Source of the DNA: Mytilus trossulus
Lineage: Eukaryota
Length of the DNA stretch: 64,000 nucleotides
Direction of reading: 5' to 3'
Assembly: GCF_036588685.1 (NCBI RefSeq)
Contig: NC_086379.1
Location: forward strand, 62,992,001 to 63,056,000
Under the pieces are notes generated by a model. That model was given only the letters and a program-made list of their open reading frames with translations. It ran no database searches and had not been told where the DNA came from. Both the position numbers and the translations under genes were made by a program. This document shows, in pieces, positions 7,005 to 63,130 of the stretch. Numbering within the stretch: the stretch's first letter is position 1; each line of letters starts with the position of its first letter.

Positions 7005-8545
7005 GATAAGAGTTTTGTGTTTGTCCTTTTTAAAACCTTTAATGATTCTTGTCTGTAATAATGCGTATAAAGTAATACTTGATTGTGGAGTGTTGTGATA
7101 TGAAGTTGAAAAGTAGTTCTGTAGTTGTTTTGTTGTTTATACTTCCAATAAAATAACTATATTAGAATATGGGAATTTTGTGGCAACTGCATTTTCAAGG
7201 ACACACGGAATAGTGTTTAATATTATTAATAATAACGTTTCTTTTGATACAAGCTATAAATATTGCATTAAACTTTCCTCTATTTTATACATTTGATTTA
7301 GTCGTATTGTCATTAATATCAATTGTATGTGTTTATACATCGAATTTCAAATGACGGATGCTTTTAGGCATGCCAGATAGAATAACATATTTTTCACTGA
7401 ATTATTGAATACCATGCCCTGTACTTGTGTTCACGTTTGACACTGAATGGTATTTCCTATGTGTCCATTCATTATCGTTAGGGAATAGCAAAATTATAAA
7501 ATCCACAGAATTACACGCTGTGTCAATACTTTCATGATCATCAATAATTCTGATCAGTTATATAATCAAAATGCATATTTCAGAAGTGAAAGGCAGGTAG
7601 ATTTTCCCGTCATTAATTTTTATTACATAAAAACGTGCTTCTAATTTTTCCTAAAATCTACATTTTAAAATAGATTTTATCTTGATAAGCGTAAAAAGAT
7701 ATAAAACATTTAGTGTATGATTCTAAAATATAGCTCGGTACCAATCATTGTGGTGGTTCAAAGAGTAGTACAAATATATCAAACACAACGAAAATGGTTT
7801 TCAAAGATATAAGTTTAAAAGAACTATGAAACTAACATCAAGGGCAAAGCGGACAATAGTTTCTCGGTTTCTTTTTTACTTTAGACTGTTTCATCTGGAA
7901 CTAATAAATAAAGGTATCATATACCTTGTTTCATCGCTAAGTAAAGATGATTATGTCGTCGCTCTATTACATATGTTGCTTAAGTATACTAAAGCTTGTA
8001 AACAGGACAAAAAGACGAAAATTTGGTTTACCTGCAGTGATGGTTAATATCTTTTAGGCCAAACATGTTGATTGAAATTTTGTATTTGGTACAGGGTAAA
8101 ACATTACTTATTCCGAGTATTTATTTTTTTGAAACAAAGATTACTTCTGTACATTTTTTTTATGTTGAAAAAGTTCCAATTCAACAGAGACCAGGGACGT
8201 ATATAAGTCCTTGCAGAGATCAGGGACGTATATAAGTCCTTGCAGAGATCAGGGACGTATATAAGTCCTTGCAGAGACTAAAACGGACAAATCACTGGTG
8301 ATTTTACTTATTTAGCGAATAGTGTGTTTAATATTTGAGCATTTAAACAATTCAAAGCAATAACTTTAATTTAATTCCATCGATTCAAAGATTAATGGCT
8401 AAAGAAAAATATACTATCTTTGGTCCTTGAACTCGGCCATTGTAAAAGCTTGGATTTTACTCTTTTATTTTATAGAAACATATATTTTCTGTAGACTGAA
8501 TCATATTCTAGGTGTTAATATCTCGGTATTGCATGCAGTGGAAAG
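7005..8545 (-). pseudogene. Decayed LRR/TLR-like remnant (copy II), tandem duplicate of 9105-10735
   Basis: Collinear nucleotide similarity to 9105-10735, e.g. GCAAAATTATAAAATCCACAGAATTACACGCTGTGTCAATA in both; the same block recurs near 18290-18330. Confidence 0.5.
8185..8278. repeat. Tandem repeat, 3 x 29 bp
   Basis: CAGAGA(C/T)CAGGGACGTATATAAGTCCTTG repeated three times. Confidence 0.9.
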
Positions 8546-23249: not shown

Positions 23250-25480
23250 TCGTCCAATGCATTATCATCATGTTCATATAAAACTGTGAGCTATTGCTAT
23301 TTATTGAGGTTTACAATATATAAAATTTATGTATTCACAATACACATCATACTTTTACATACCATAATTGAGGACAATCACTATCTAGTACTTAAAAACT
23401 GATATGCACAAATAATCATGAAACATCATACCAAACACCAATGGCATTTCATAAATTTATACACACTCTAAGAAATTATACTTTTGACACTGTAAACAAT
23501 TTCAATGATATTGAGTTTTGGGGATTTTGTGCTGCATTCAAAAGAGGGACGAAAGATACCAAAGGGACAGTCAAACTCATAAATCTAAAACAAACTGACA
23601 ACGCCATGGCTAAAAATGAAAAACAATAGTACACATGACACAACATAGAAAACTAAAGAATAAACAACATGAACCCCACCAAAAACTAGGGGTGATCTCA
23701 GTTGCTTCAGAAGGGTAAGCAGATCCTGCTCCACATGCGGCACCCGTCGTGTTGCTTACGTGAAAACAAATCCTGTAAATAGTCTAATTCGGTAGGTCAC
23801 ATTCATGAAAGGGAAGGGGATTGTAGTTACGACGTAAGGAACATATCCGATATCATTTGTGAAACGGTTATCCCATAACGGTCAACAAACTCGTGATGGC
23901 GTCCGTAAAATTTACGAAGGGATGATTTCAACTTCACCATTTGGAACTCTTGGTTTAATAGCTTCCTTGTGAGCAGTAACCCTCTATCAAGAAAATCATG
24001 ATAGGAAATGCAAGCACGGGAATATCGATCAATTGGGAAATATATACCCCGTATGCAGGTGCTGCTGGAATGTTGCTACTTAGAAATGGAAAGTTCACAA
24101 TTGGAAAGCTGAAATCATCTCTTTTGTCGTAAAGTTTTGTCTTCAACCGACCCTCATTGTCAATTTTTAGATGTAAGTCAAGATATGAAGCCGACTTAAC
24201 TGTATCTGTAGTATTCTTTATCTCCAATTCGATGGGATAGATGAGTTCCACATAGTCACCAAATTTTGAATTGTTTAGTGAAAGAACGTCATCAATATAG
24301 CGGAAAGTAGAGTTAAAGGATATTGCTAACTTCTTATATTTCTTCCTAAGAAGTTCATGCATGAAGTCAGCCTCAAATGAGATCACTGCATGAAAATTGT
24401 TGTATTATGTTAATGAGAAAACTAAGCAAAGGTGTTGAATATGGTGAAATATCCAGAAAAATAACATCCATGACATATCAGATGTCACACAAACACATTT
24501 TGCAGACAGAAATCAGCAGATGGACAAATATTAGTGATGAAACATCCATATCTGCCATAAAACATTGAAAATGGTGGCTCAGTAAGTTGTTCAATCTATA
24601 AAAATGTCATAAGTTGCTTATAGTGTTTTCAAAGGTATATTAAGATAACTTTTTTTTTTAATCAAAGGATCATTTACTGAATGCAGGCTTTTATATGTGT
24701 TTTATTCTAAATATTTGACCTGGCCAGACAGGGGTGTGGATTATATGGTATAATAAGCAAGAAATAAGAGAAAAAAAAAATAGATGTTGCAAGGTTTGAT
24801 TCCATTCTGGCATGTTTGTAAACTTTGTAATTGAAATTGTAGAGGGATCCCTTATCTTTTTCAAAAATAAAATTTACCTAATCAATATATATTAATATGC
24901 AATTTTTATTCAAGTGTTAAATTTCAAGAACTACAAAAGCAATCACTTACTCATTCTTTTTTTGCGTTTCATACTAGCACATGTGCTTTGCTTTAACTTA
25001 AAATCCTTCAAATATTAATGTGAAAGATATTTTAAACATTATTTTATATAAGGATGAAACTATTTTACCTTCGAAGTCATTTAGAGTGATCTATATTAAG
25101 AACTGTCAGTATACTCTCACATTATTTACTTTTATTTACTATTCAAACTTCCCGTAAAAACAAACACAAGTTTCTTAATTGTTTTATTTTGACTTATATA
25201 TAAGATCATTCCAGGAGTGTTTTAGAATCATTCACAACCATTTTCAACTTCTATTTGATGATGGCAAACAGTTTCTTCCATGAAGATTCCCCAATTGAAC
25301 ACATGATTTGAAATTAATCAAGCTTCACAAGACATGTTCAAACAATTACCAAAAGGTCTTTTTCTTGAATTCTTGTGGCAATGTTCTAGTGTGAACTATA
25401 TAAATGAGATTGAGCAATTCCCAAAATCATCATCAAAAGGCTGATCGATCAACTTTCTTTATAAATCATTAAATTGGCCT
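23250..25480 (-). pseudogene. Decayed TLR-like remnant (copy VII) with TIR split by a Penelope-like insertion
   Basis: LxISQNK and RIQEKTF LRR-like pieces (~25180-25385); RYGCFIT...DF (~24500-24560); NIIEIVYSVKSIIS*SVYKFMKCHWC (23435-23512) fits the TIR pattern NIxxxIxxSxKxIxVxSxxFxxSxWC. Confidence 0.5.
23540..24376 (-). mobile_element. 5'-truncated Penelope-like retroelement (RT C-terminal part plus 3' tail)
   Basis: ORF 23955-24386: FRYIDDVL, SYLDL, LYDKRDDFSFPIVNFPFLSSNIP..PAYGVYISQLI. One frameshift, then RYSRAC...KFYGRHH...SDMFLTS* (stop at 23829-23827). Confidence 0.9.
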
Positions 25481-25625: not shown

Positions 25626-25786
25626 TTATTTATCAACTTCAGGACTTTCAGTTTCCATTGGTTGTGTGAATTGTGAGTTGAACTCCATGGGATGACAATC
25701 TAATGTTTTTAAGTTTACTAATACACATGTAGCTGTTTGACAGAATTTAGGTACACTGACTAATAATATCTCTTGGCTGTTAGGTC
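25626..25786 (-). CDS. POLD2: POLD2 last coding exon ([35 protein letters not shown]...VDK*)
   Basis: AG acceptor at 25787-25788; TAA at 25628-25626. Confidence 0.95.
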
Positions 25787-28700
25787 CTGAAATGATATAA
25801 GATTATTAATGTTAATAAGTTATCAATAAATAGTTAAGGGGAGATGAGTCATGTTATTTTTGTAGAATTCAATCAAAAACAAATGAAAAACACAAATTTA
25901 AAATATCAAGGATGATAAGTAATATATGGTATTTATTTAAGAATCCTTTTGTTTAAAATGGAATTGAATTTCTATGTGAATATTATGATACCAATAATAA
26001 ACTATTGCATATCACTTTTTCTTCGACCTTGGATTTGTATAAACTTTGTTTCATAATAGAAAAATATTAAATGTGTATAAAAACAGCCTACTTATGTAAT
26101 AAATTTTACTTCATACTGATGTTTAACAGCATTTATTTTTTAAATAGAAATAACAAAATGAGGCATGATTACTTAATTTCACTACAAGATACATTGAATT
26201 AAAACTAATGGTATTTGTTTTTTTCATTGTTGAAGGTCATACCCTTGCCTAAAATTGCTTACATATTTATTTGAACTTGGTGGATAGTGATCTCATTTTT
26301 ATAATATTATGTAATTTCAAACAATATCAAGATGTTTATCATACATCATATATATTATCCTACAAAAATAGTCAAATGTTCCTTTGAATCTATAATAGAA
26401 TCAAGTTTACAATAACCTTTGATAAAATGCTTAACAGAGTGCAGCCTGATACGACTGCAGAGGTCGAACCATGAACAGTTGGTGCAAGTTTGGACACAAT
26501 TTTCCAGCTTCCTACTGCCTGAATTTTTGACACAAAATAAATGTGGTGAAAAAAAGTTTGGGTTGAAATATTTGTATTATTTTTCAATTGAAGATTTCTT
26601 GCTATTGCATAATACCGTTATTGTTGTTAGCTTTACGCTGCATTATCACAGAAATGCTATATAAAGACGAGAGCTAGTTCGAATATTATAACAATTTAAG
26701 GTATATTCTAAAAATCAGACAAAAGGTCTTTCAATAAACTAATCATCATAAATTTCTAGACTAAAGCAAAGTGATCCAGATTTGTGTGATTACTTCTTCA
26801 TTTCTAATTACAGCTTACCTTTATGTATTTTACTGCCAAATGATGACTGGTTTCCACAAAAGAATATGTGTGGACATTCTGTTATAATGAAGGGATCATC
26901 TTTAAAAAATGGATAGCAACCTGTAAAAGAAAATGAATATTTTACACTTCCTTAACAATTTTAGCAGTTAAATCTTATTTCAAAACCTTAGAAACTCTGG
27001 CTAAATGTTTAATGTATGCACATGACTTTGTATTTTATTTCCCTAAATTGTATATTTACATGTTTGTTTCAGACTCTGTAGTTGCAGTGTATACACATGT
27101 GACTTTTGGCAGTAGCTTTAATGATTTTTTTAGTGGAAATTGATATTTGGATACTCAATAAGCCTGTGGCTATGCTCACAAAATAATAACCAAAGCCCCT
27201 CCACTAACACAAATTTATATACTCATCTTTACTTGTAATTGTAAAATGGTCTTCCTGTGCTATCTTTACTTTATCAATGTTGGTGATTTATGCTTATCAA
27301 GTAAAGTCAAAGTATAAAGATATTAAACTGTTTTTGTTTTTAAATACAAAAAGAACAAGAATGTGTCCATAGTACACGGATGCCCCACTCGCACTATCAT
27401 TTTCTATGTTCAGTGGACCGTGAAATTGGGGTCAAAACTATAATTTGGCATTAAAATTAGAAAGATCATATCATGGGGAACATTTGTATTTTTTGTCAAG
27501 TTTCAAGTTGATTGGACTTCAACTTCTTCAAAAACAACCTTGACCAAAAACTTTAACTTGAAGAGAACAGACTCACAGACGGATGAACGAACGGACGGAC
27601 GAACAGAGGCACAGACCAGAAAACATAATGCCCCTCTTCTATCGTAGGTGGGGCATAAAAAAGGCATTAACTCAGTGAACTCCTTTTCTGTTTATTATTG
27701 ATGTTAACATGTTGCAAATAAATAGTATATACCCAATGAGTCTGGAGCTGTGGGAGCAATATGTCCCCAGGTAATACATTTATCTAATATGTCAACTGGG
27801 TCATCTAATTCACTGTATTTCATGATGTTAGTAACTGGCTGTCCTGAGGTACCAAGGACTCTAAAAAAATGTTTTTAAAATGATAAATAATTGTGGAAGA
27901 AAAACATATGCATCAGTATTTATCATTGTAGATCCAACACTTAGTTTTAAAAATATTTAACATAAATGATTTATTATTCTGACTTAATAGTGTTGTTTGT
28001 TAGAAACAAATTGCTTCTATCTTTTTAAATGTGAAATATCTGTCAGGAAAGACATTTCCTTATCTGCTCTACAGCAAACTAAAAATAGCAATATAATAAT
28101 ACACACTCATTATACAAATTTAAATATATTTCCCTATCAACACAAGGACAATCAGATTAAGCATGAATTACACAATTCAAAATTGCTCCTTCAGTTATAT
28201 ACACAAAATAAATAGATTGACATTAAACAAGAGGTACTTGATATTTTAATAAAGAGATTGACAAGGACAAACAAATAGAAGTTTTTAACCACCTTGACTG
28301 GCTTTACAGCAATTGCATGGTCGGTTCTTGACAAGGACAAAAAGTCATGCAGATTAAAGTGGCCATAAAAAAACTGATTAGGAAAGTTTTTAAAAACATT
28401 AAGGTTAACCAATGATTTACATATTTTCCAAAAAAATGACAGAAAAAGGGCAGGTTCAATAAGTTGTCCTGCTTAAACTCAAAATGCCATGATGATAATT
28501 TATACCTTTACCAAAAATATGAAACATAAACAAATAATATGCCATGAAAAACAAATAGTGATAACTTTTTAAAACTACTCACCTGACTCCTTCTAGATGA
28601 CAACTGTATGGATTTGTGACTGTTTTAACAATTTACCTGACTCCGTCTAAATGACAATTGTATGGATTTGTGACTGTTTGAACAATTTACCTGACTCATT

Positions 28701-31700
28701 CTAAATGACAACTGTATGGATTTGTGTCTGTTTTAACAATTTACCTGACTCCTACATGACAATCGTATGGATTTGTGACTGTTTTAACAATTTCCCTGAC
28801 TCCTTCTAAATGACATTTGTATGGATTTGTGACTGTTTTAACAATTTACCTGACTCCTACATGACAATCATACGGATTTGTGACTGTTTTAACAATTTAC
28901 CTGACTCCTACATGACAATCATATGGATTTGTGACTGTTTTAACAATTTCCCTGACTCCTACATGACAATCATATGGATTTGTGACTGTTTTAACAATTT
29001 ACCTAACTCCATCTACATGACAATCATATGGATTTGTGACTGTTTTAACAATTTACCTGACTCCTACATGACAATTGTATGGATTTGTGACTGTTTTCAC
29101 AATTTACCTGACTCCATTTACATGACAATCATATGGATTTGTGACTGTTTTAACAATTTACAATGACTCCTTCTACATGACAATCATATGGATTTGTGAC
29201 TGTTTTAACAACTTACCTGACTCCTTCTACATGACAATCATATGGATTTGTGATTGTTTTAACAACTTACCTGACTCCTTCTACATGACAATCATATGGA
29301 TTGGTGACTGTTTTAAATGTTGGAAATCTAGATGCCTGAGCAAACATACATTTGTGTAAAGGTTGTTGAGGTATAGTAAAGTTTGTAGGATCATATTCTC
29401 CTGCCATAACATCAACATCAACACTCCCCTGAAATACAATTTTCATCTTTTATAATTAGTGACTTGACAACACATATGTTGCCCTCTTACATTCTTAGAT
29501 GTCTTTTATCTATTTGAGAATTGTCGAATTGCTATCTCATTTTCTTTATTCATGATTAAAGATTAAATTCAGTCAGAAAAACATAGTGTTAAAAAATAGT
29601 GATACAGTGACCCTCTATGGTTTTAGCCAAGAATGGGATGTATAAGAACACACAGCACAATTCTTGGCTTTAACATTAATTACAGTTTCATTCAATTTGA
29701 AAGGAAAAGTCTTCCTTATATATATAAATATACAGTGACATTCACTTAGGAGTATGCTTGATTTAAGAATATTTACTCACAGATAGTTGAAAGAAAACAT
29801 CATCCAATGTTTTTACTGCCTCTACACTTGCTGCTTCAGATTTCTTTGTTAAATATTTGGCCTGAAAAATCATTTATGTTCACTAATTCAGGTTTTCTGT
29901 TTTTATGGTTAAATTTTGTAAATAAAATTCAACTCTGGAAAATTTGAGTTGGTTTATAAAACTCTACTGATCTAGTCAGTTAGTCAGATATTTAATTTTT
30001 CTTGAATATTGAATTTGATGAACAAAACCTTTTTTTTTAAGGGTTTCTAATTTTAAACTTAACACCACATATTTGGACAAACAATATTAAATAAGCAAAC
30101 AAAAGGGAGTCCTAGTGTGTTGATTTAGTGTTATATCTTGTGAATCTATCCCCTTAATAAAAGAGCTGTCAACTTAAACACAATACATGTAGCAAGAAGA
30201 AAAGAAAATGGGTTAAAAAAATGCATTCTGCATATTAATTTTGAAGCTCTTTTTTTTCAATCTGCACTCATTAAGAATTTATCAAAAACTAACTGCTTAT
30301 ACTGAAGAGGTGAACAGAGTAAAACCTTATATACAAATTTGTATTCCAAAACCAGATTAGAAATTGCTTCGAGTCGTGAATGCTATAACAAGTATACAAA
30401 TTTCAGTTCAGTATTGCCTACTTTTGATTCATTTATTTTCATAGGTACCAATTTTCGTGGAGTACGTTATCTTAAATGTTCGTAGATATTTAATTTTGTG
30501 GTTTTGCTGTATTCTACATACATGCCTATAGAAAATTTGTTATTTGTTGAACATTTAATTTTGTGGTTCACTTTTTAGTCAGGGGTACTACTTGAACAAG
30601 TTATTTTTAATAACTCGAAGAAGTAATATTAATATACTTATAGAAGTAAATTTGTAGGATACTTGTACAAGTGAATTTTATTTACTTGTATAGGTAAAAA
30701 AAATATTATTGGCTGAGTTATGTCCCTTAGACATTCAGATTTATTTACTTGTAGAAGTAAAAAAAGTCATCCTATCTTCTTTTATTGAATTCTCATGATT
30801 TCTTTGATCTAATAGAATTTTAAATTATCTGCCTTTTTCAGATGTATTTACTGATCGTTTAAGTGTAATTTCAAGGACAATGAAAATCCAATAATTGTTT
30901 GTTATCTCCAGACCACTGCTCATTTACAAGCCCCCAAGGAGCAATTTTTGAAGACCTTGCACAAATACTTAAGATCTTTGGGCAAACAGTTTCTTTGTTG
31001 AATTAATGAGATGAAACATTGAACTCTAAAAAAAAAATTGAGCAAACCTGGGAAAAATCATTAAAGGCAAGATTTTACATCTCAAAACTTGAGGACTTTT
31101 GTGGGATTGTATGAAAAACTTACTTATTCTAGTAAACTTTTGAGAAAATTAAGGGCAGATTTTTCAAACATTATTTATTTACTTAAATGTGTATATTTTT
31201 TTTTACTTCTTCAAATAAATAACTAGAGGCTCTAAAGAGCTTGTGTCGCTCACCTTGGCATATGTGAATTAAACAAAGGAAGCAGACAGTTCATGACAAA
31301 ATTGTGTTTATGTGAATGTGATGTGTTTGTACATCTTCCTTTACTGAACATTTTTGCTGCTAACAATTATCTCTATCTATAATGAACTTGTCCGTGTAGT
31401 TTCAGTGGAAAATGTTAGTAAAAATTTACAAATTTCATGAAAATTGTTAAAAATTGATTATAAAGGACAATAACTTCTCAGGGGGTTAATTGACCATTTT
31501 GGTCATTTGTACTTATTTTTGAGTCTTAAATTGCTGTACATTAATGCTGTTTACAGTTTATCTCTATCTATAATAATATTCATGATAATAACCCAAAACA
31601 GCAAAATTTCCTTAAAATTACCAATTTAGGGGCAGTAACCTAACAAAGAGTTGTCCGATTCATCTAAAAATTTCAGGGCAGATAGATCTTGACCAGATAA

Positions 31701-34700
31701 ACCATTTTACCCCTTGTCAGATTTGCTCTAAATGCTTTGGTTTTTGAGTAATAACCAAAAACTGCATTTAACCTCCATGTTCTATTTTTAGCCGTGGCGG
31801 CCATCTTGGTTGGTTGGCTGGGTAAAAAAACACAAATTTTAAACTAGATACATCAATGATGATTGTGGCCAAGTTTGGATTAATTTGGCCTAGCAGTTTC
31901 AGAGGAGAAGATTTTTGTAAAAGATCATGGAGATTTACGAAAAATGGTTAAAAATTTACTATAAAGGGCAATAACTCCTAAAGGGGTCAACTGAACATTT
32001 TGCTCATGTTGACTTATTTGTAAATCTTACTTTGCTGAACATTATTGCTGTTAACAGTTTATCTCCATTTATAATAATATTCAAGATAATAACCAAAAAC
32101 AGTAAAATTTCCTTAAAATTACCAATTTAGGGGCAGCAACCCAACAATGGGTTGTCTGATTCATCTGAAAATTTCAGGGCAGATAGATCTTGACCTGATA
32201 AACAATATAACCCCATGTCAGATTTGCTCTAAATGCTTTGGTTTTTGAGTTATAAGCCAAAAACTGCATTTTACCCCTATGTTCTATTTTTAGCCATGGC
32301 GGCCATTTGATTAGTTGGCCGGGTCAAAAAACACAAATTTTAAACTAGATACATCAATGATGATTGTGGCCAAGTTTGGTTAAATTTGGCCCAGTAGTTT
32401 CACAGGAGAAGAATTTTTTTAAAGTTAACGCTGGTCGACGGACGACAGACGACGGACGCCAAGTGATGAGAAAAGCTCACTTGGCCCTTCGGGCCCGGTG
32501 AGCTCAAAATAACTTGTAAAAGTAGTAACCCTGACTGCCTTTTTGCACAAAATTCACGAAAAATTTATATCCAACAAACAATAATTAATCCACAGTATAT
32601 TACTTTCTATCATATCAATATTATATACCTTCTGTAAACTCTCTTTGTCTTGTGTATCCTGACTGAGGGAATTTCCTGCTACTATTACACGTACAATACT
32701 AGAAGAGGACTCTTGTTGGTCCATATCTCCCACCTGACCTGTTACCATGTCAACCATAAGTTGTAATGGAAAAGACTTTTCATCTTTTCCTCCTATTTCT
32801 AAACCAGATATGATAGCTATAAACCTAGATAATAAAGTATATAAAAGTCTCATTAAAAGGATGGTCACTCCAGTTTTCTGTTAAAATGATTTTAAAATTG
32901 ACAATAGGGAGTAAATTATAACATGTGCATTTATTTTGACATTCAATACCAAGAAAATTTACCAAACTCAAACAAAATAAATTCTTGTAAGTCCAGATTT
33001 AATCTAATGTCTGAAATTTTTTCCAATGACTTGTTTCAGCTACAGTGGATTAATTTTCATTCCACAGATACCAATTATCAAGGATTTCATTGACGTAAAG
33101 GTGGACCACAAATTTAAATGTTCAACCAAGTACCAATTTTTTTATAGGTTTGTAAAATTATAAATTCAAATATCTACAACGTACTCTAAAAGTTGATTGT
33201 TACACCATTATTTTAGAATAAGGGTTGAGATCTCAAAAAACATATGCTGCAGTTTTGGGCCTGTCCTAAGTCAGGACCATATGACCTTTGTTAGTCTTAC
33301 ACTATTTTTATTTTGAGATCATTTACATACTTCAGAGTTTAGTATGATGTACATTTTCACTGAACTAGTACACATTTTTTCTAGGGGCCAGCTGAAGCAC
33401 CCCTCCAGGTGTGGGATTTTCTTGCTGAATTGATGGGTGGCCTTTGCCTGTTTTCTGCTCTTTGGTCTACAGTACGGGTAGGGACTTATTTTTATGGATG
33501 TCTTAATCCGTCTAGTCGGATATGACTAATCGGACATTTTTATGGTAGATAGTATGGTCATTAATCAACAGATCCAGGCGTGATTGGCAATATATTTGTC
33601 CTTTCATCTTAATCCGTGCTGCTAGAATTACGGTTCACTGATTTCAGAATCAGGTTACCTATAATTTAAACCTCTGTCACTTTAATGATTACATCGTATT
33701 TGACATAAAATATTTTTACAGGTGAAGTACTGGAGAAAACTTTGTTTTAATAAAAATAGCCTATTTTTTAATTATGGTTTTTATATTTCAACTGCTATTT
33801 ATTTTCTAATTTGTTCTGTGAAATTATTTTTATTCTATGTTCCTTGTTGTTTATTTTTTGTTTTTTTGTGGATCTTTTTCTTATTTGTTTGCATAAAATT
33901 TCAAACATAAATATTTTTACATGTATTCTATTTCTGGAAGCATACGGTTATTTTTGTTTTATTCGTAAATCCATGGATTAGCAGAATGCTGTCTCAAGTG
34001 TTAGTTTGACGCGGTCACATGCAAAATATTTCTATAATATGTATTTAATATTCAGTCTGTGTTGGGTCAGTTCCGAGATAAAAAAATATTTACAGTGAGC
34101 AATACTTGTATATTATTAGTAGCTTGATGATTCTTTTTAGTTTTTACTGTAAACAAATATTGTCCGAAACTTCAAAGTTGGAGATGTATAAGTAAAATAG
34201 AACGCAAACAATAACACTAGAAGAAGATATTGATTCTTCCCGGGCATAAGTTTATTTTAAGATTTCCATGTTTGTTCATTATGCTAAATTAATATAATTG
34301 ATCTGCATTTCCGTGTAGGGGGTAAATGGGGTCTGGATTTGAAATCCTGTGCTTAAAAACACGAAGTCCCAGGGTCCCGATTTTAAATCCCGTAAGTGTT
34401 AATCCCGAAATCCCGAAATTAATTGCATAATATTAATTTACGCACAATCCATGTAAAAAAAAGAAAACATGTATGTTATATATTTTTAAAAGCAATCTAT
34501 TAAGAAAAAATTGCAGTGAAAAGACAATTCCATGATACACATATTAGTGATCAACAGCGTGTGCACGTGGTTAAACTTTAACTTGACAGTGACTCCACTC
34601 ACAATAATATTGAATGCTAATAAAAGATATTAAAGATAGATTTTTATATGGCGGGAAATGTCGTAACAGTAAACTCAGGTGACCTTACTGAACGACCGTG

Positions 34701-37700
34701 GGAAAATCCATTCATGATTTAATTTGATGTGGAATGATTGACAGTATTGTGCGTTAGTTTTGAGGCTCTTGATCGATTGACCAGAATAGAAATTTAATCG
34801 ATTTACAAAACAAGAATTAGTCTGCTTTAACTATTTTTTTTTTTAATTTTATCAGTCGTTTCCCGGATTCCCAAATAAATAATCTATTTGGAGACCTCCT
34901 TTAAACTTCGGAAATAATACATCGATTTAAAAATTCACACTGACTGTGCTAGCTTTTAATAGAATGACTAGAAGTACGATGAAAAAGTAAAGACAGCTGA
35001 TCACGAGTCTTTAACCCCATTGGGGTATAAATGTGCGTTTATTCAATAAACTATATAAGGTTAAATTTTGATTTTCGTGTATCGATTGATACAATTCGTA
35101 AAATATATTTATAATAAAAACACCGGCGATTTTCATAAAATATTTGAGACATGAAAATAGAAAGGCAATATCTCAAGTGTCAACATTTTTTTGTAAAATA
35201 AAAATTAGGAATCGAAATATGATCACGGCGTTATAAATATTGTATTTAAAGAAACCAATTGTTTGACTTTCAAAGAGATTAACGGGAAATATGTCAAAAT
35301 AGAAAGCACGAGTGATCTGTCTGACCAAAATGTTTTACTTGTGAGAAATGATTGACAGGTGTGAATTGATGTAGAGGCTCAGACGGGGAAAGTTGTATCA
35401 AAAGGAAAATAACTTTAATCACAATGCCTATACATATTTTATAAATACGATATGTTGGCCTTATACTTAAAATTGTGTTTCTAATAATAACATATAAAGG
35501 AACAGGACGTTAAAAGGGGGAAATAATATAACCATCAACGAAAATTCGTATAATTTACTGGATTGATGTCTCAACAATTTGATTTAAACTTCGATTGAAA
35601 ACAGTCTTGGTTGTTATTAGACTTATTATTTTGCATTAGATGAAATATTTACGGTTTACAAATACAAATGCAAATACAAAATAGTTTATTGGCAAAAAAC
35701 TATTGTAATAATTGGCAACACAATATATTGTTAAAAAAATCGTCGTTATTTTATTGTCAAATTATATTAAAAAAAATCCCACATTCATGATATTTAATTT
35801 TAATTCTTATATTTAATTTTTAATTTAAATTCTTATATTTAATTTTAATTTCAATTCTTTCTCTTTGAATACAAAACAATATTTTACATTTATCTATTCT
35901 CCATAAATACTATATCTGTACAGGTAAAATTTAGTTCTAATCAAGCTGGTACAGATTGATTTACGACCTTCCACTTGGATATTGCACAGCAGGTGTTTAT
36001 TACACTGGGACAACTGTCCGACCAGTCTGACATCTAGACGGATTAAGGCATCCATAAAAATAAGTCCCTACCCGTACTGTAGTTGGTGTCTCTTTGACAC
36101 ATTCCCCATGTCCTTTCTCAGTTTTATTCTGTACCACTTTTTGTTTGGTTAGTATGTATACCTGTCATGTTCAAACATTGGTCTTGGTATTTGTTTTGGT
36201 AACTGTTGGTAACAGAAATCCTCCACTTGGAACTTGCCTCTGCTGTCCTCTGGTTCTACACCATACAATGCAACAATTACACCTATAAAAACAGTGTAAA
36301 TATTTCAACAAGTTGTGCAAGGTACATTTGAATGTAATTCATTTTTTTTTAACATATTTTGGTCAAATAATAGATCGCATTATGCACATTTCAGATTGTG
36401 CAATTAGATGAATTTTGATGTGATAACAGAAATAATTTACATTGATACCTCAAAAATGAAATTTCAGAATGTTGACTGATTTTAAAAATGAACTAAATTT
36501 CACAATTCAATTGACCTGCTATTTGGATCTTATTTTCCTTCAAGTATCTAAGAAAGTATTTACAAGCCTTTATATTTCTACATACCTGTCACTGAAGTCT
36601 GTATATCTAGTTTTCCAATTAATAAAATTCTTTGTAATTCATCTTCAAGGATCAATTTATCATTACTATCTGTGTACTTAGATTTAATAGGTTGAGGCAT
36701 CAAATTATGCTGAAAAAAAATATATTCAATATAAATTTGTGTATTTTAAAATCTGTATCATAATAAAGGATATCTTTAAATTCCATTAGACTACAAGTAT
36801 CAAAACGACCTACTACAATTTGACTGAGTGAAAACAAAGATATAAATCATGTTAGTAATGATGCATTCAATCTCAGCAAATGTGTATAAATATTTTTTTT
36901 AAATCTTCTTCTGCAAATTCAGAAATTATTGCATGCATTTATTATTGCGATTTTGTCAATTTAGAATAACAGGTGATTTTAATTTTTGAAATATTCAGAA
37001 AAATCCTGTTTAATTCATAATTTTTTTTTTTAACTTACAGTACATGTTTAGAGCATATCTGTCCATGTTTAGAGCATATATATACAGTACATGTTTAGAG
37101 CATATCTGTCAACTTCATATTGTTGAGTCTGATGCAGATGCTCAGTGATGAAATGTATGATATGATTACAGTCAGTCAGGGGTACTACTTGTACAAGTTA
37201 TTTTTAATTACTTGAAGAAGTAATATTAATATACTTATATAAGTAAATTTGTAGGATAAATTTGTAGGATACTTATACAAGTGAAAAAAATATTGGCGGA
37301 GTTATGTCCCTTAGACATTCAGATTTTTTTTACTTGTATAAGTAAAAAAGTCATCCGATCTTCTTTTATTAAATTCTTAGGATTTCTTTGCTCTAATAGA
37401 ATTTTAATTTATCTGCCCTATGCAGTGGTCTACTAATCATTTAAGTGTAATTTCATAGACAATAAAAATCCCATTTGTCTGTTATCTTCAGAACACTGAT
37501 CATTTACAAGCTTAAGATCTTTGCGCAATCAGTTTCTTTGTAGAACTAATGAGATGAAACATTGGACTCTAATAAAAATAATGAGCTTACCTGGGAAAAA
37601 ACATTAAAGCCATGATTTAACATCTCAATACTTGTCAGAGAAATTTTATGGGATGGTATGAAAAATTTACTTATACACATGTATAAGTAATTTTTGAGAA

Positions 37701-40700
37701 AATTGATGGGAGATTATTTAAACATTATAGTTAACTTATAAGTTTATAACTTTTTCTTCTTCTTTAAATAAATAAAAATAACTTGTACCAGTAGTACACC
37801 TGACTGACAGTGGCAAATTTTAGATTTTCACAAAAATGTCAGTTAGTAATATCTGAAACCTGATACTATGAGTTTGGTCCATTAATTAAAGTTTGTTTAA
37901 TGACGTACAAAAGAATGAGAGCCTAGAAACTTAATATATCAATTGATTAGTTATTCTTCGGTTATTCAAATTTTGCTGCATTCATGGGCATCAGTGAAAT
38001 ATTGTTTAACAACATGTCCCAGGTTGTGGGAGGTATGACTGCTCACAATCACATTTACCGGTAAACCTGCCACAATATTTAAGTGCATGTCTAAAATCAG
38101 GAGTCTGTATTTCAGTCACCGTCATTGGTTGCTTTCTGCTATATTTTTTTTTCTGTTTGGTTTAGCATTTAAACATGATAAACCAGGTAATTCATTTTCT
38201 TATTTGATGTTATGCTGGAGCCTTTTTAAGCTTACTACATAGAATATACGTAGGCTTTTTCTCATAGTTGAAGGATGTATGTGGACCTACACTAAAGAGG
38301 CAGTACTTTGTATAAAACCATACTTTTATCGAAAATTCCTTGCTAAAATCAGAAAAGTACCTGTCCACATAAACAATAATTAAAGCCTCTGAGTCTGTAC
38401 CTACATGTATACATAAAAATGTACAATACAGATAACAGTTTTTATCATCTTTCTGAAACACAAAACTTTTTATAGCTATGCCATTATCACCATTGATTCT
38501 CACATTTCAGTTTTGATAATGGATGGAGAGTTGTCTCATTGGCACTCACACCACATCTTCCTACATCTATTGAATACAATCATACCTCTTCACTTAATTC
38601 TTTTAGGATACTAGGTCGAAGTTCCATGTGTTTAAAAAGGGTACCAATTATAACACATTTTTCATCACTTTGCAACTCATGCAACTTCTTTATATTTACA
38701 TCTTTTCCTACAAAAAAGAATATAAATATATGTATAAATATACAATATCCTATCTACAGACATGACAGATGAAGTTAATGGTGAACAATTTTTTCAACTG
38801 CTTAAGGAATTTTTTGATGATGAAATAAATAATAACCAAGTCTTTAAAAATTATTAAAATAAAAACTTTTTACTGATTTCTAAATAGTGAATAATCACCA
38901 TGAGAGAATTTGCCTTAAATTATACTCCAGATGGGTCACAAATGGTTCAAAGATCGATTTGTGGCTATACATTAATATAACCCTGAAAAAAATTATGTCT
39001 AATAAAGATCTTTCTAATTTTTGTTTTATTCAGTTCTTCAAAGGTGTTAACTACTTCCCACAAATTTGTATATCAAAATGCCGAAAAGTATGATGGCGTG
39101 TTACAAAGATGAAGACCTTAATGTTCCAATTGTCATTATCAATCTTCAAAAGCCAAAGGTTATGATCAAATCCCCTCCTCTCCACTCTTCACAAATAAAG
39201 ATACAGTTTTATATCCACAATGCAATGATTTTCATTGGTTGCAGTTGTAACTGGCTGAATCCAATAAAAAGCACCTAAAAGATGATCACAGGCCTAGGTA
39301 ATTCAGAAAATATAGACAATGACCACATATATATATATATATACTGAGTGCCAATGAAAACGCAACACTTTTGTTTTTCAAAAAAATCTTATGATTTTTA
39401 TTTTATTTATATGAGAACTTTGTACAGTTGGTTTAAAATGACTTTTAAGACAATTGACGACAACTTTACGGTTGAGTGATTTTTGGAACAAATGCGAAGT
39501 ACGGATTATTTTGAACAGACATAAACCGAGTTCACCGCTTTTCAACATACGCATCATTTTCACGATTTTGTCATTTAAAGCTTTGCTAATGTCATGAATT
39601 TTCCCGCCCTTATTTTGAGGATACTGCAATAAACATCTGAGTAAATCCCAGGACTGTCTGACAACCAGCGACATGCAGTTTTGGGCATGATCACATGAAG
39701 CCTTTCACTGCATACAATTACGAGAAGACTGAAGTTGTAGCCTCTTCAATAACCTAAATCATCCACAAGTTCAACCAAAATGAACCATTTAATGATAAGC
39801 GACATCCCGGGTACAAAAAGCAAGAAACGCTCAGCCAGACCGATACATTTGGTCTTAAACATATTCGATATTGACTCTGATATGGGTGTACAAAGGTCAC
39901 GAGAGTTCAATGGTGGTCACAGTAGATCCTTTGGAGCAATTTAAGTAAAGCACCATTTGCGCAAAAATTGTTAAAGAGCACCAAAGTCTTTCCTTAGTGA
40001 CATCTAAACGGCCGTAAGATGTAAATATCGAATTCTGTAGACCAAAAATCATTCATTGTGTACCAAAAACCGTCAGTGGCGGTTACATAGACATTTGGCA
40101 CCCATCTTGGCCAAAATTCATGTGTTTTGTCCGATTTTGGTCCGACCGAGCAAATTTTGCATCAGGTTAGACATGGTTTAGACGATGAAAACCACCACCA
40201 ATATCATAAGTCAGATTGAGTTTGATATGCGGGACAAGTGGAACAACATTCCTCGAGATCACATTAAACGTCCGGGATGATTAATGCCACGGCGCTGTCG
40301 AGATTGCGCTGCACAACGGTGTTGTAACATGTTTTGTTAGGACTGTAAGTTGATGATTCGACATTGAATGTTTCGTTTACCTATAGCGTCTTAAAGATGA
40401 CAATGAAACATTTTTGTTTGATATCGATCTATTGTTAGGATTGTTAATTTTCAAAAACAATTTATTTTGAAAGATTATCATTTCTGATATAAATTTTATT
40501 TTTGAAAAACCAAATGTTGCGTTTTCATTGGCACTCAGTATATATATATATATACAATGTACTGATGGTGCAACAAGTTTTTTCCACCCAAAACTTTCAC
40601 CAATATTTGGTAACCATTTTGAAGTTCTTAGCTAATTGAAGTTCCTGTGTGTATTTTTCTCTGGCATTTGTTGGAATTTTAACAAATATTTTCAGTTCCT

Positions 40701-42154
40701 GCTAAACTTCTTGTAAACACTTGACACAACCATTTTTCCACCTTCAATACAGAAGAGAGTTCAAGTGCTGCCATTGGTCAAGATTGATGATGTTGGAAAA
40801 AGCATGACTTTTATTTGCCGGTACATGAACTGTAGATGGCACAGCATTGTCTGATTGTATCACAGATTTTGGCAAAATCTGCAAAGGGTAGAGATTTGTA
40901 CTAATATGAGCAACATGATACATTGTACATGTAGGTTCCACTTGTGGAGTAGGATCTAATTCGCTTCTTTAGCACAGGAGATCACCCAAGCTGTTGGTGA
41001 GGTTTGTGTTGATCAGTCTATATAGCTTCATTTTTAAGTTCTGTTGTTTTGTATATGGATTTATGTTGCTTGTTCATTGCTTGCCATGGCATTGTCAATT
41101 TGTTCTTATTAAACTTACATGAGTTTGGATATACCCAGAGTTCAATATAATTGCTATGCAAGTAAAATCTGGTGCGGGCAAGTTAAACCCATGACATAGA
41201 TGTTGGGCAGGCAAGTTGAAATATTGTGCGTGTGTATAACTAAGTCAGACATTGATTTCTGTCAGGTGTCACCGTGTGTGTTTGAGAATGTTCAGTCACA
41301 ACTGCATAGACATATCCACCCATTTTTAAATGGGGGTTCCCAACACATACAGAAAGGGAGGGTGGGTTCCAACTATATGTCCCCATTCGAAATGCATTGA
41401 TCGTCCAAAAAAAGGGGGGTACAACCCCTTGAACATCCCCCTTCTGCATCCGCTACTGTGAAAGGAAGTCAGATACCACAATCCAAACAGAAAGGGTTTT
41501 GCAAACAAGTTGTGGTTGAAATACAAATGAAAGGAGAGAATTTTTGACGACTGGGTGAATTTCTACATTCTCTAAATGTACATCTGAAATTTGATTTTCT
41601 TCTTTTCTTTTAAAGTTTTTGTTTTAAAAAAATTGGTTTATACATTTGTAAAAGCTTGGTCTAGAATTTAGGATTTGGATTTCAGTTTATCCAGAGCTTC
41701 TAGGGCCTTCATCTGCCTGCCAGCCGTAATTGCAACCAGCTTTGCTCATATGACATCAGCGCATATGTTGGAATACATGTATAAATAAACTACTGTTGTG
41801 CTATTGCAAGACCTGGAACAGATTCATGTTTTAAAATAGAATAATATTCAAACAAAACAAAAATACTCAGAAAAAGAAAGGACAAAGGTGGGTTCTTTGA
41901 CAATGATTAGTTTTTGAAATCTTTTTACCCCACTTTGATTTGGCAGCATCTACTACTTTGTCCCTCATACTCCACAACCGTTCAGCATACAGATGAGCAT
42001 ACTGTCTTGAAAAGTTTTTAGATTTCACTCGAAATCTTTCCGACAAATCTTCATATTTACAATCAGATCGAACATAATCTGCATCAGATGATTCTGTCGG
42101 TTCAGTCAGTAGTTTTCCAACATTTGTAGTGCCTTTTTCGGGATTAAACAACAT
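25626..42154 (-). CDS. POLD2: DNA polymerase delta subunit 2 (p50), complete 10-exon CDS, 472 aa; join(41929-42154, 38586-38707, 36586-36709, 36162-36282, 32629-32824, 29781-29861, 29271-29428, 27733-27860, 26819-26920, 25626-25786)
   Basis: Manual translation gives conserved POLD2 motifs ([74 protein letters not shown]). All introns are GT-AG with consistent phases, and exon lengths sum to 1419 nt. Confidence 0.97.
26819..26920 (-). CDS. POLD2: POLD2 coding exon 9 ([34 protein letters not shown])
   Basis: AG/GT bounded, 102 nt. Confidence 0.96.
27353..27660 (+). mobile_element. HINE-like element (ACAAGAATGTGTCC... family)
   Basis: 5' ACAAGAATGTGTCC..GGATGCCCCAC, (GACG/GAAC)n microsatellite, 3' ATGCCCC..GGGGCAT hairpin; relatives at ~22920-23165 and 57024-57655. 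Confidence 0.7.
27733..27860 (-). CDS. POLD2: POLD2 coding exon 8 (VLGTSGQPV...[13 protein letters not shown])
   Basis: AG/GT bounded, 128 nt. Confidence 0.96.
28583..29315. repeat. Minisatellite, 14 units of mostly 51/54 bp, derived from the POLD2 exon 7-intron 7 junction
   Basis: Unit on + strand CTGACTCC(TT)CTACATGACAATCATATGGATTTGTGACTGTTTTAACAATTTAC; produces the repetitive + strand ORFs 28810-29166 and 29141-29359. Confidence 0.97.
29271..29428 (-). CDS. POLD2: POLD2 coding exon 7 ([25 protein letters not shown]...[13 protein letters not shown])
   Basis: AG/GT bounded, 158 nt. Its 3' end is the first unit of the minisatellite at 28583-29315. Confidence 0.95.
29781..29861 (-). CDS. POLD2: POLD2 coding exon 6 ([27 protein letters not shown])
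   Basis: AG/GT bounded, 81 nt, close match to the conserved [15 protein letters not shown] segment. Confidence 0.96.
30577..32537. mobile_element. Second copy of the 37172-37807 MITE, interrupted by a HINE-like element
   Basis: 30577-31221 is collinear with 37172-37775; the right TIR resumes at 32506-32537. Confidence 0.78.
31222..32507 (+). mobile_element. HINE-like element with two ~540 bp internal repeats, nested in a MITE
   Basis: 5' ACTAGAGGCTCTAAAGAGC; (GACG)n; 3' hairpin GCTCACTTGGCCC-TTCG-GGCCCGGTGAGC; internal duplication of ~31440-31925 and ~31950-32420. Confidence 0.72.
32629..32824 (-). CDS. POLD2: POLD2 coding exon 5 ([12 protein letters not shown]...[10 protein letters not shown]...ESLQK)
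   Basis: Lies within ORF 32554-32868; AG/GT bounded, 196 nt. Confidence 0.96.
33470..36079. mobile_element. 2.6 kb non-autonomous TIR element (Tc1/mariner-like, TA target duplication) in POLD2 intron 4
   Basis: ~46 bp TIRs CAGTACGGGTAGGGACTTATTTTTATGGATG(T/C)CTTAATCCGTCTAG; TA at 33468-33469 and 36080-36081; splits an older repeat; no transposase ORF. Confidence 0.88.
36162..36282 (-). CDS. POLD2: POLD2 coding exon 4 (VIVALYG...[10 protein letters not shown]...EHDR)
   Basis: AG/GT bounded, 121 nt. Confidence 0.94.
36586..36709 (-). CDS. POLD2: POLD2 coding exon 3 (HNLMPQP...[12 protein letters not shown]...SVTG)
   Basis: AG/GT bounded, 124 nt, LEDELQRI motif. Confidence 0.95.
37172..37807. 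mobile_element. MITE with CAGTCAGG..GTACTACTTGTACAAGTTATTTTT TIRs
   Basis: Inverted termini; a second copy lies at 30577-32537, interrupted by 31222-32507. Confidence 0.8.
38586..38707 (-). CDS. POLD2: POLD2 coding exon 2 ([40 protein letters not shown])
   Basis: AG/GT bounded, 122 nt, frame continuous with exons 1 and 3. Confidence 0.95.
39342..40540 (+). mobile_element. Decayed Tc1-family DNA transposon in POLD2 intron 1
   Basis: TIRs TACTGAGTGCCAATGAAAACGCAACA at both ends, embedded in (TA)n. C-terminal remnant [22 protein letters not shown] at ~40230-40320. Confidence 0.88.
41929..42154 (-). CDS. POLD2: POLD2 coding exon 1 (MLFNPEK...KSKWG)
   Basis: ATG at 42154-42152; [13 protein letters not shown] motif; GT donor at 41928. 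Confidence 0.93.

Positions 42155-48162: not shown

Positions 48163-63130
<14,968 letters not shown>

What the first reader, a model, noticed from the sequence alone, without database searches (positions are those of the whole stretch)
28575..29315. Minisatellite built from the POLD2 exon-7 end plus its 5' splice site: an array of decoy donors behind an in-frame stop
Seen: the last ~44 nt of exon 7 ([15 protein letters not shown]) and the first ~10 nt of intron 7 are tandemly amplified into 14 units of mostly 51 or 54 bp. Most units keep CAG|GTAA. Two have lost the GT (near 28795 and 28951) and one near 29163 is degraded. The most distal unit ends in a different strong donor, CAG|GTGAGTA (28582), which may be the ancestral one. 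Reading past the first donor gives AGG-TAA, so using any distal donor puts a stop codon right after the exon-7 Arg. Inference: an essential replication gene must pick the first of about 11 competing donors. Mis-selection would give NMD substrates, so array copy number could tune POLD2 output or act as a splice-site sponge.
Basis: partly seen in the sequence, partly recalled or inferred. Interest (0 to 1): 0.72.

Follow-up and report, generated by a model that had tools for sequence, protein, structure and literature searches.

The report
Repeated splice donor in mussel POLD2
In a mussel's DNA-replication gene POLD2, the end of one exon and its splice signal are copied 13 extra times into the next intron; the transcript assemblies examined join at the first, genuine signal, so this is most likely a harmless new example of a repeat type already known from human and lancelet genes.

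Summary
The array is real: 13 extra 51-55 bp copies of the last 44 nt of POLD2 coding exon 7 plus 10 nt of intron (28581-29316, minus strand, Mytilus mussel). Eleven of 14 junctions keep AG|GT, but 8 of these lack the +5 G. It is not an assembly artefact: 3 of 3 DNA runs laid (three organism labels) hold multi-copy units, with differing unit make-up. 4 of 4 probable-RNA runs (four studies) carry an exon 7-exon 8 join; first-donor use is shown directly in one and inferred in three. Unit contigs reach about 1-3% of the main contig's depth. Six of six named Mytilus proteins are spliced this way. The in-frame stop comes with any phase-2 GTAA/GTAG/GTGA donor. The class is published: human F7, CBS, IFI6, LMNB2 and PDGF repeats, and lancelet 'mirages'. 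In F7, copy number did not change donor choice. This scan noted the same kind before, three times in this genome and in worms and sharks. Minor leak to NMD is not excluded: no raw reads, no NMD block. Ordinary; low interest.

The parts
29271..29428 (-). POLD2 coding exon 7 (158 nt, ends in phase 2 inside Arg343)
   Evidence: joined to exon 6 and exon 8 in contigs
29265..29270 (-). Working 5' splice site, CAG|GTAAGT (full 9-nt match to U1)
   Evidence: X8 contig leaves the stretch at 29271 into exon-8 letters
28581..29316 (-). Minisatellite: exon-7 end plus 13 copies of 10 nt intron start + 44 nt exon end (51-55 bp)
   Evidence: single locus in G000
29211..29216 (-). Second donor, identical to the working one (CAG|GTAAGT); the most plausible leak site
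28631..29107 (-). Eight intact internal pseudo-donors (AG|GTAAAT, +5 G lost) and two dead ones (GG at 28951, 28795)
29156..29163 (-). Degraded pseudo-donor (ATT|GTAAAT, one extra T)
28577..28582 (-). Last donor CAG|GTGAGT, followed by unique intron; likely the original intron start
   Evidence: same junction in X1 and X2 contigs
29311..29317 (-). TTTAAAA word in exon 7, also present at 28567-28573 in the intron; possible seed of the first duplication (inferred, 2 nt out of register)
27733..27860 (-). POLD2 exon 8 (acceptor AG ends at 27861)
25626..42154 (-). Whole POLD2 coding region, 10 exons, 472 aa

Best explanation
This is a splice-donor-spanning minisatellite in intron 7 of mussel POLD2 that is likely near-neutral, because the transcript contigs examined are spliced at the first donor and the 13 copies would be removed with the intron. 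It probably began as one tandem duplication of about 54-56 bp across the exon-intron border, perhaps slipping between two TTTAAAA words (inferred). It was then expanded and partly homogenised like any VNTR (inferred from unit sub-types and from differences between individuals). The first donor likely wins for three reasons: it is transcribed first, it keeps exon 7 at its normal 158 nt, and it matches U1 as well as or better than nearly all copies. Any rare use of a distal donor would end the protein at residue 343 of 472 and is predicted to be cleared by NMD; this would be noise, not regulation.
For: Shown: X8's main contig (depth 150.8) runs exon 6 - exon 7 and leaves at 29271 into exon-8 letters; its listed unit contigs have depths 2.55 and 2.64. 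X4's main contig (661.4) runs through exon 7 to 29271 plus 3 letters; its unit contig has 8.38, against 2.9 for a piece of ordinary intron. X13 and X19 each hold exon 8 in one unbroken 1659- and 1731-nt contig preceded by exon-7-type letters. 6 of 6 named Mytilus proteins read through the junction, and none of the 10 members of that cluster is a 343-aa form. U1-pairing score (my own simple count): 22 for donors 1 and 2, 17-19 for the internal ones, 23 for the last. No excess of changes at donor positions. Base rate: 17 array rows (16 distinct arrays) in 264 kb, so about 0.4-0.5% of positions lie in a first unit. Literature: F7 uses only the most upstream donor, and repeat number does not matter (PMC1557585); lancelet mirages do not disturb splicing (PMC3087553).
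Against: Donor 2 is a perfect copy of donor 1, and the last donor is CAG|GTGAGT. In F7 constructs that very sequence did outcompete a weaker upstream site (about 70-90% use). IFI6 and CBS use their next two pseudo-donors (introduction of PMC1557585). All RNA evidence here is steady-state contigs whose RNA status is guessed, which drop rare variants and would miss NMD targets. For X13 and X19 the 30 letters shown fit exon 7 and unit 1 equally, so first-donor use there rests on the contig being unbroken. One search left 58 loose-end rows and 198 piece rows unshown. The array occurs under three organism labels, which could reflect retention, but equally recent common ancestry or gene flow.
Confidence: 0.85

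Rival explanations
1. The array is a splicing-NMD dial: donor 2 or other GTRAGT units divert a sizeable, genotype-dependent share of POLD2 transcripts into decay.
For: Donor 2 is a perfect copy. A stop would lie at least 280 nt before the last junction. Unit make-up differs between the window and runs X1 and X4, which carry GTGAGT-type units. CBS and IFI6 do use nearby pseudo-donors.
Against: Unit contigs are about 1-3% of the main contig and not clearly above intron background. No distal-unit-to-exon-8 join among the rows shown. Copy number had no effect in F7. The stop needs no design.
Confidence: 0.08
2. The array was kept but disarmed by selection: copies lost the +5 G or the GT because strong decoys cost POLD2 output.
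For: 11 of 13 units begin G(T/G)AAAT with +5 A; two lost the GT and one the exonic AG.
Against: 4 of 19 distinct substitution alleles fall in the donor 9-mer, 3.2 expected, p 0.39. The +5 change is probably one event spread by array turnover. Other individuals carry GTAAGT- and GTGAGT-type units.
Confidence: 0.1
3. The array acts as a U1 snRNP sponge.
For: Ten extra U1-complementary sites per nascent transcript.
Against: Own knowledge: U1 is among the most abundant nuclear RNPs, and ten sites in a short-lived intron of one gene cannot titrate it. The unit contigs show no accumulation.
Confidence: 0.01
4. Assembly artefact.
For: Tandem arrays are error-prone in assemblies; no single contig spans it in the runs laid.
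Against: The units differ in structured ways. 3 of 3 DNA runs, three studies, hold unit contigs at many times flank depth, and X2 shows a unit-to-unit back-joint. X1 lacks the window's private unit-1 letter, so it is likely not the assembled animal.
Confidence: 0.01

Closest known systems
Human F7 intron 7 37-bp VNTR (Borensztajn et al. 2006, PMC1557585; read parts 1-4 of 6: abstract, introduction, results, most of the discussion)
   Same: The first monomer spans the exon-intron border, the donor is reiterated in the intron, and only the most upstream donor is seen in use.
   Different: F7 units hold 4 nt of exon and 33 of intron and share one mid-strength donor. Here units hold 44 nt of exon and 10 of intron, and donors vary: two perfect, eight weakened, three broken, one GTGAGT. 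Polymorphism in length is shown for F7, not here.
Lancelet 'mirage' minisatellites (Adh3, globins BflGb6 and BflGb9; PMC3087553, passages read)
   Same: Tandem copies of an exon-intron boundary in a marine invertebrate; many but not all keep splice signals; regular splicing is undisturbed; BflGb9 copies the 3' border of an exon.
   Different: Mollusc rather than cephalochordate; an essential replication gene; 13 copies. Somatic instability, shown at Adh3, was not tested here.
Human IFI6 (6-16) intron 2, CBS intron 13, LMNB2 and PDGF repeats (known to me only from the introduction of PMC1557585; primary papers not read)
   Same: Donor-spanning minisatellites with 10-25 pseudo-donors.
   Different: IFI6 and CBS use two further pseudo-donors; no such use was seen here. 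LMNB2 and PDGF behave as this locus appears to.

Membership tests
Donor-spanning minisatellite (F7 type / mirage) | Head-to-tail array of 10-200 bp units whose first unit spans an exon-intron border | tested here: met
Donor-spanning minisatellite (F7 type / mirage) | Splice-donor sequence reiterated in the intron | tested here: met
   10 extra intact AG|GT sites
Donor-spanning minisatellite (F7 type / mirage) | Normal mRNA made from the most upstream donor | tested here: met
   direct in X8, inferred in X4, X13, X19; 6 of 6 named proteins
Donor-spanning minisatellite (F7 type / mirage) | Variable copy number between alleles | tested here: inconclusive
   Unit make-up differs between the window and X1, X2, X4; contigs cannot give length
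Donor-spanning minisatellite (F7 type / mirage) | Pseudo-donors can work when the first is mutated | not testable with these tools
   needs a minigene
Regulated unproductive splicing (AS-NMD / poison donor) | Alternative site puts a stop more than 50-55 nt before a later junction | tested here: met
   at least 280 nt; automatic for a phase-2 GTAA/GTGA donor
Regulated unproductive splicing (AS-NMD / poison donor) | The alternative isoform is made in appreciable, regulated amounts | tested here: inconclusive
   not seen in steady-state contigs, ceiling about 1-3%; no NMD-blocked data
Regulated unproductive splicing (AS-NMD / poison donor) | Conservation of the poison element across distant species | not testable with these tools
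   units present under three organism labels whose exons differ by only a few percent where covered; no outgroup genome could be read

The most novel reading that the evidence does not exclude
Array alleles differ in how many full-strength GTRAGT donors sit next to exon 7, and that number sets the share of POLD2 transcripts lost to NMD: a naturally segregating splicing dial on a core replication subunit in wild mussels.
Probability: 0.07. Interest if true: 0.5.

Novelty: new member of a known kind. Interest (0 to 1): 0.15.

Why it matters
As it stands it matters little: one more donor-spanning minisatellite that splicing ignores. Its small value is as a natural test of first-come versus strength rules. 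A perfect donor has a perfect twin 54 nt downstream and a CAG|GTGAGT site about 690 nt further on, in an invertebrate, and the first still dominates in the contigs seen. It would matter more if array genotype changed POLD2 output, or if a genome-wide count showed such arrays forming preferentially at donors.

Tried and rejected
(1) No RNA holder was on record in the run search; all 24 runs listed are contigs, and 'RNA' is a guess. The four treated as RNA cover exons and join across introns. I laid 7 of the 24 runs (X4 twice). (2) No contig was laid across the body of the array, so per-donor junction counts and array length remain open. (3) Selection against decoys: no enrichment of changes in the donor 9-mer. 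(4) A designed in-frame stop: rejected, because GTAA, GTAG and GTGA all give a stop after a phase-2 cut. (5) Unit lengths being multiples of 3 (12 of 13): no coding role, since a stop opens 11 of the 13 units in the exon's frame; the 3-nt deletion lies in an AG-rich stretch. (6) Units as mini-exons using their internal AG: no pyrimidine tract and nothing seen in contigs; not excluded by a direct test. (7) A mobile or dispersed repeat: the exon-7 query hits only this locus in G000 (that search skips very common words). (8) Literature on this locus: a search for Mytilus + minisatellite + intron + splice gave 3 papers, 2 listed, neither relevant by listing. A search of this scan's notes for POLD2 with these words found none holding all of them. 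No search of papers for POLD2 itself was run. (9) PMC10078293 (passages) concerns repeats with motifs up to 20 bp and added nothing specific. (10) The two other window arrays read (8185-8277, 56677-56971) and one in L017 do not appear to copy an exon end. No supplements were opened.

Full report
Observation. The window is AT-rich animal DNA. Tandem Repeats Finder reports an array at 28581-29316 with period 54, 13.9 copies and 90% matches. On the minus strand it is the last 44 nt of an exon followed by 13 units (7 of 54 nt, 5 of 51, 1 of 55), each made of 10 nt of intron start and 44 nt of exon end. The 14 junctions are two CAG|GTAAGT (29270, 29216), eight AG|GTAAAT, two with GG in place of GT (28951, 28795), one degraded (29162/29161) and a final CAG|GTGAGT (28582) that runs into unique intron.

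The gene. Ten exons between 42154 and 25626 snap to AG/GT borders and give 472 codons with no internal stop. The exon-7 peptide matches human DNA polymerase delta subunit 2 at E 1e-16. The product matches a protein named Mytilus POLD2-like at 459 of 472 positions.

Is the array real? I laid three DNA-type runs from three studies and three organism labels. All three hold unit contigs well above flank depth. X1 shows about 390-530 over the unit against 25-41 in most flank bins, X2 about 36 against 2-11 where covered, and X24 693 against 25-42 beside exon 8. The tool warns that these sums are not copy numbers. X2 has a unit-to-unit back-joint of 108 nt. X1 and X2 both join a unit to the unique intron behind the last donor. 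X1 lacks the private letter of the window's first unit and has a GTGAGT-type unit contig at depth 87.4. X4 has a contig with a GTGAGT donor followed by a unit with the exon's own letter at 29249. So the array exists in other animals, and its make-up varies. Length variation could not be read from contigs.

Which donor is used? No run was on record as RNA; four guessed-RNA runs from four studies were laid. In X8 the main contig (depth 150.8) joins exon 6 to exon 7 and leaves the stretch exactly at 29271 with exon-8 letters, a direct sign of first-donor use; the listed unit contigs have depths 2.55 and 2.64. In X4 the main contig (661.4) runs through exon 7 and three letters beyond. Two allelic exon-8 contigs begin with 27 letters of exon-7 end, which together make the 30-letter overlap expected of adjacent contigs (my inference). 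Its unit contig has depth 8.38, and a piece of ordinary intron has 2.9. X13 and X19 carry exon 8 inside single contigs of 1659 and 1731 nt preceded by exon-7-type letters. Those 30 letters fit unit 1 too, so the argument there is that a transcript holding the shared 33-mer twice would break the contig (inference). No join from a variant unit to exon 8 appears among the rows shown; 58 loose-end rows and 198 piece rows were not shown. Six of six named Mytilus proteins read straight across the junction, and none of the 10 cluster members is a 343-aa form. Steady-state distal use therefore looks to be at most a few percent. These data cannot see transcripts destroyed by NMD.

The stop codon. Intron 7 is in phase 2, so any donor beginning GTAA, GTAG or GTGA reads as a stop; 12 of the 14 junctions do. 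A distal splice would end the protein at Arg343 of 472, with the stop at least 280 nt before the last junction. That fits the 50-55 nt rule (established for mammals; own knowledge). It is a by-product of the donor consensus, not a sign of design.

Origin (inferred). The word TTTAAAA occurs at 29311-29317 in the exon and at 28567-28573 just behind the last donor. Slippage between them would give a 56-nt unit, two longer than today's, so a change in the T run must be assumed, and such words are common in AT-rich DNA. The units fall into sub-types (51-nt, distal 54-nt, proximal 54-nt), as expected from ordinary turnover. Changes are not enriched in the donor 9-mer (4 of 19, 3.2 expected, p 0.39). 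In 264 kb here and nearby, 17 array rows (16 distinct arrays) passed my filter (period 20-200, at least 3 copies, at least 80% matches), so about 0.4-0.5% of positions lie in a first unit. With an assumed 150,000-250,000 donors, several hundred such overlaps per genome would be expected by chance alone, before selection.

Mechanism. The first donor is made first, keeps exon 7 at 158 nt (distal choices give about 210-850 nt), and scores 22 on a simple U1-pairing count, against 17-19 for the internal copies, 22 for donor 2 and 23 for the last. Shown: first-donor product. Inferred: why it wins, and decay of rare errors.

Comparison. PMC1557585 (parts 1-4 of 6 read) describes the human F7 intron-7 VNTR. 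Its pseudo-donors are functional but silent, the most upstream one is chosen, and 1 to 12 monomers gave the same choice. Only a perfect CAG/gtgagt competed with the weaker authentic site. Its introduction lists IFI6 and CBS (two further donors used) and LMNB2 and PDGF (only the first). PMC3087553 (passages) describes lancelet 'mirages' that do not disturb splicing. This locus meets the tested defining features of that class. Earlier notes of this scan report the same kind at three other places in this genome and in worms and sharks; I did not check those loci and do not count them as support.

Verdict. A correct observation of a new member of a known kind, most likely near-neutral (0.85). A genotype-dependent splicing-NMD dial is not excluded (0.07). 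Interest 0.15.

Noticed in passing
window 28270-28326: A short high-copy dispersed repeat inside POLD2 intron 7: summed contig depth 31,435 in DNA run X24, with many unrelated flanks.
   Followed up: no
window 28469-28531: One X13 contig (depth 6.44, 23 letters on the short side) skips 63 nt with GT..AG ends on the minus strand inside intron 7; possibly a chance fit or a cryptic splice.
   Followed up: no
window 25626-42154: Five of the nine POLD2 donors begin GTAT rather than GTRA.
   Followed up: no
window 56677-56971: 49-bp x 6 minisatellite about 125 nt from what looks like a minus-strand acceptor near 56551; it does not include the splice site.
   Followed up: partly
L009:7627-9976: A 51-bp x 46 minisatellite with 95% matches, about 30 kb beyond the window; no donor motif in its consensus.
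   Followed up: no
L017:5240-5717: A 36/37-bp array (reported at period 73) with a GTAAGT in many units but no apparent exon in front.
   Followed up: partly
window 29768 and 29881: DNA runs X1 and X2 show contigs that diverge from the window at 29768 (both) and 29881 (X1), i.e. other haplotypes of the introns beside exon 6.
   Followed up: no
window 23827-24404: Minus-strand frames that look like a fragment of a reverse-transcriptase retroelement (resemblance recalled, not tested).
   Followed up: no
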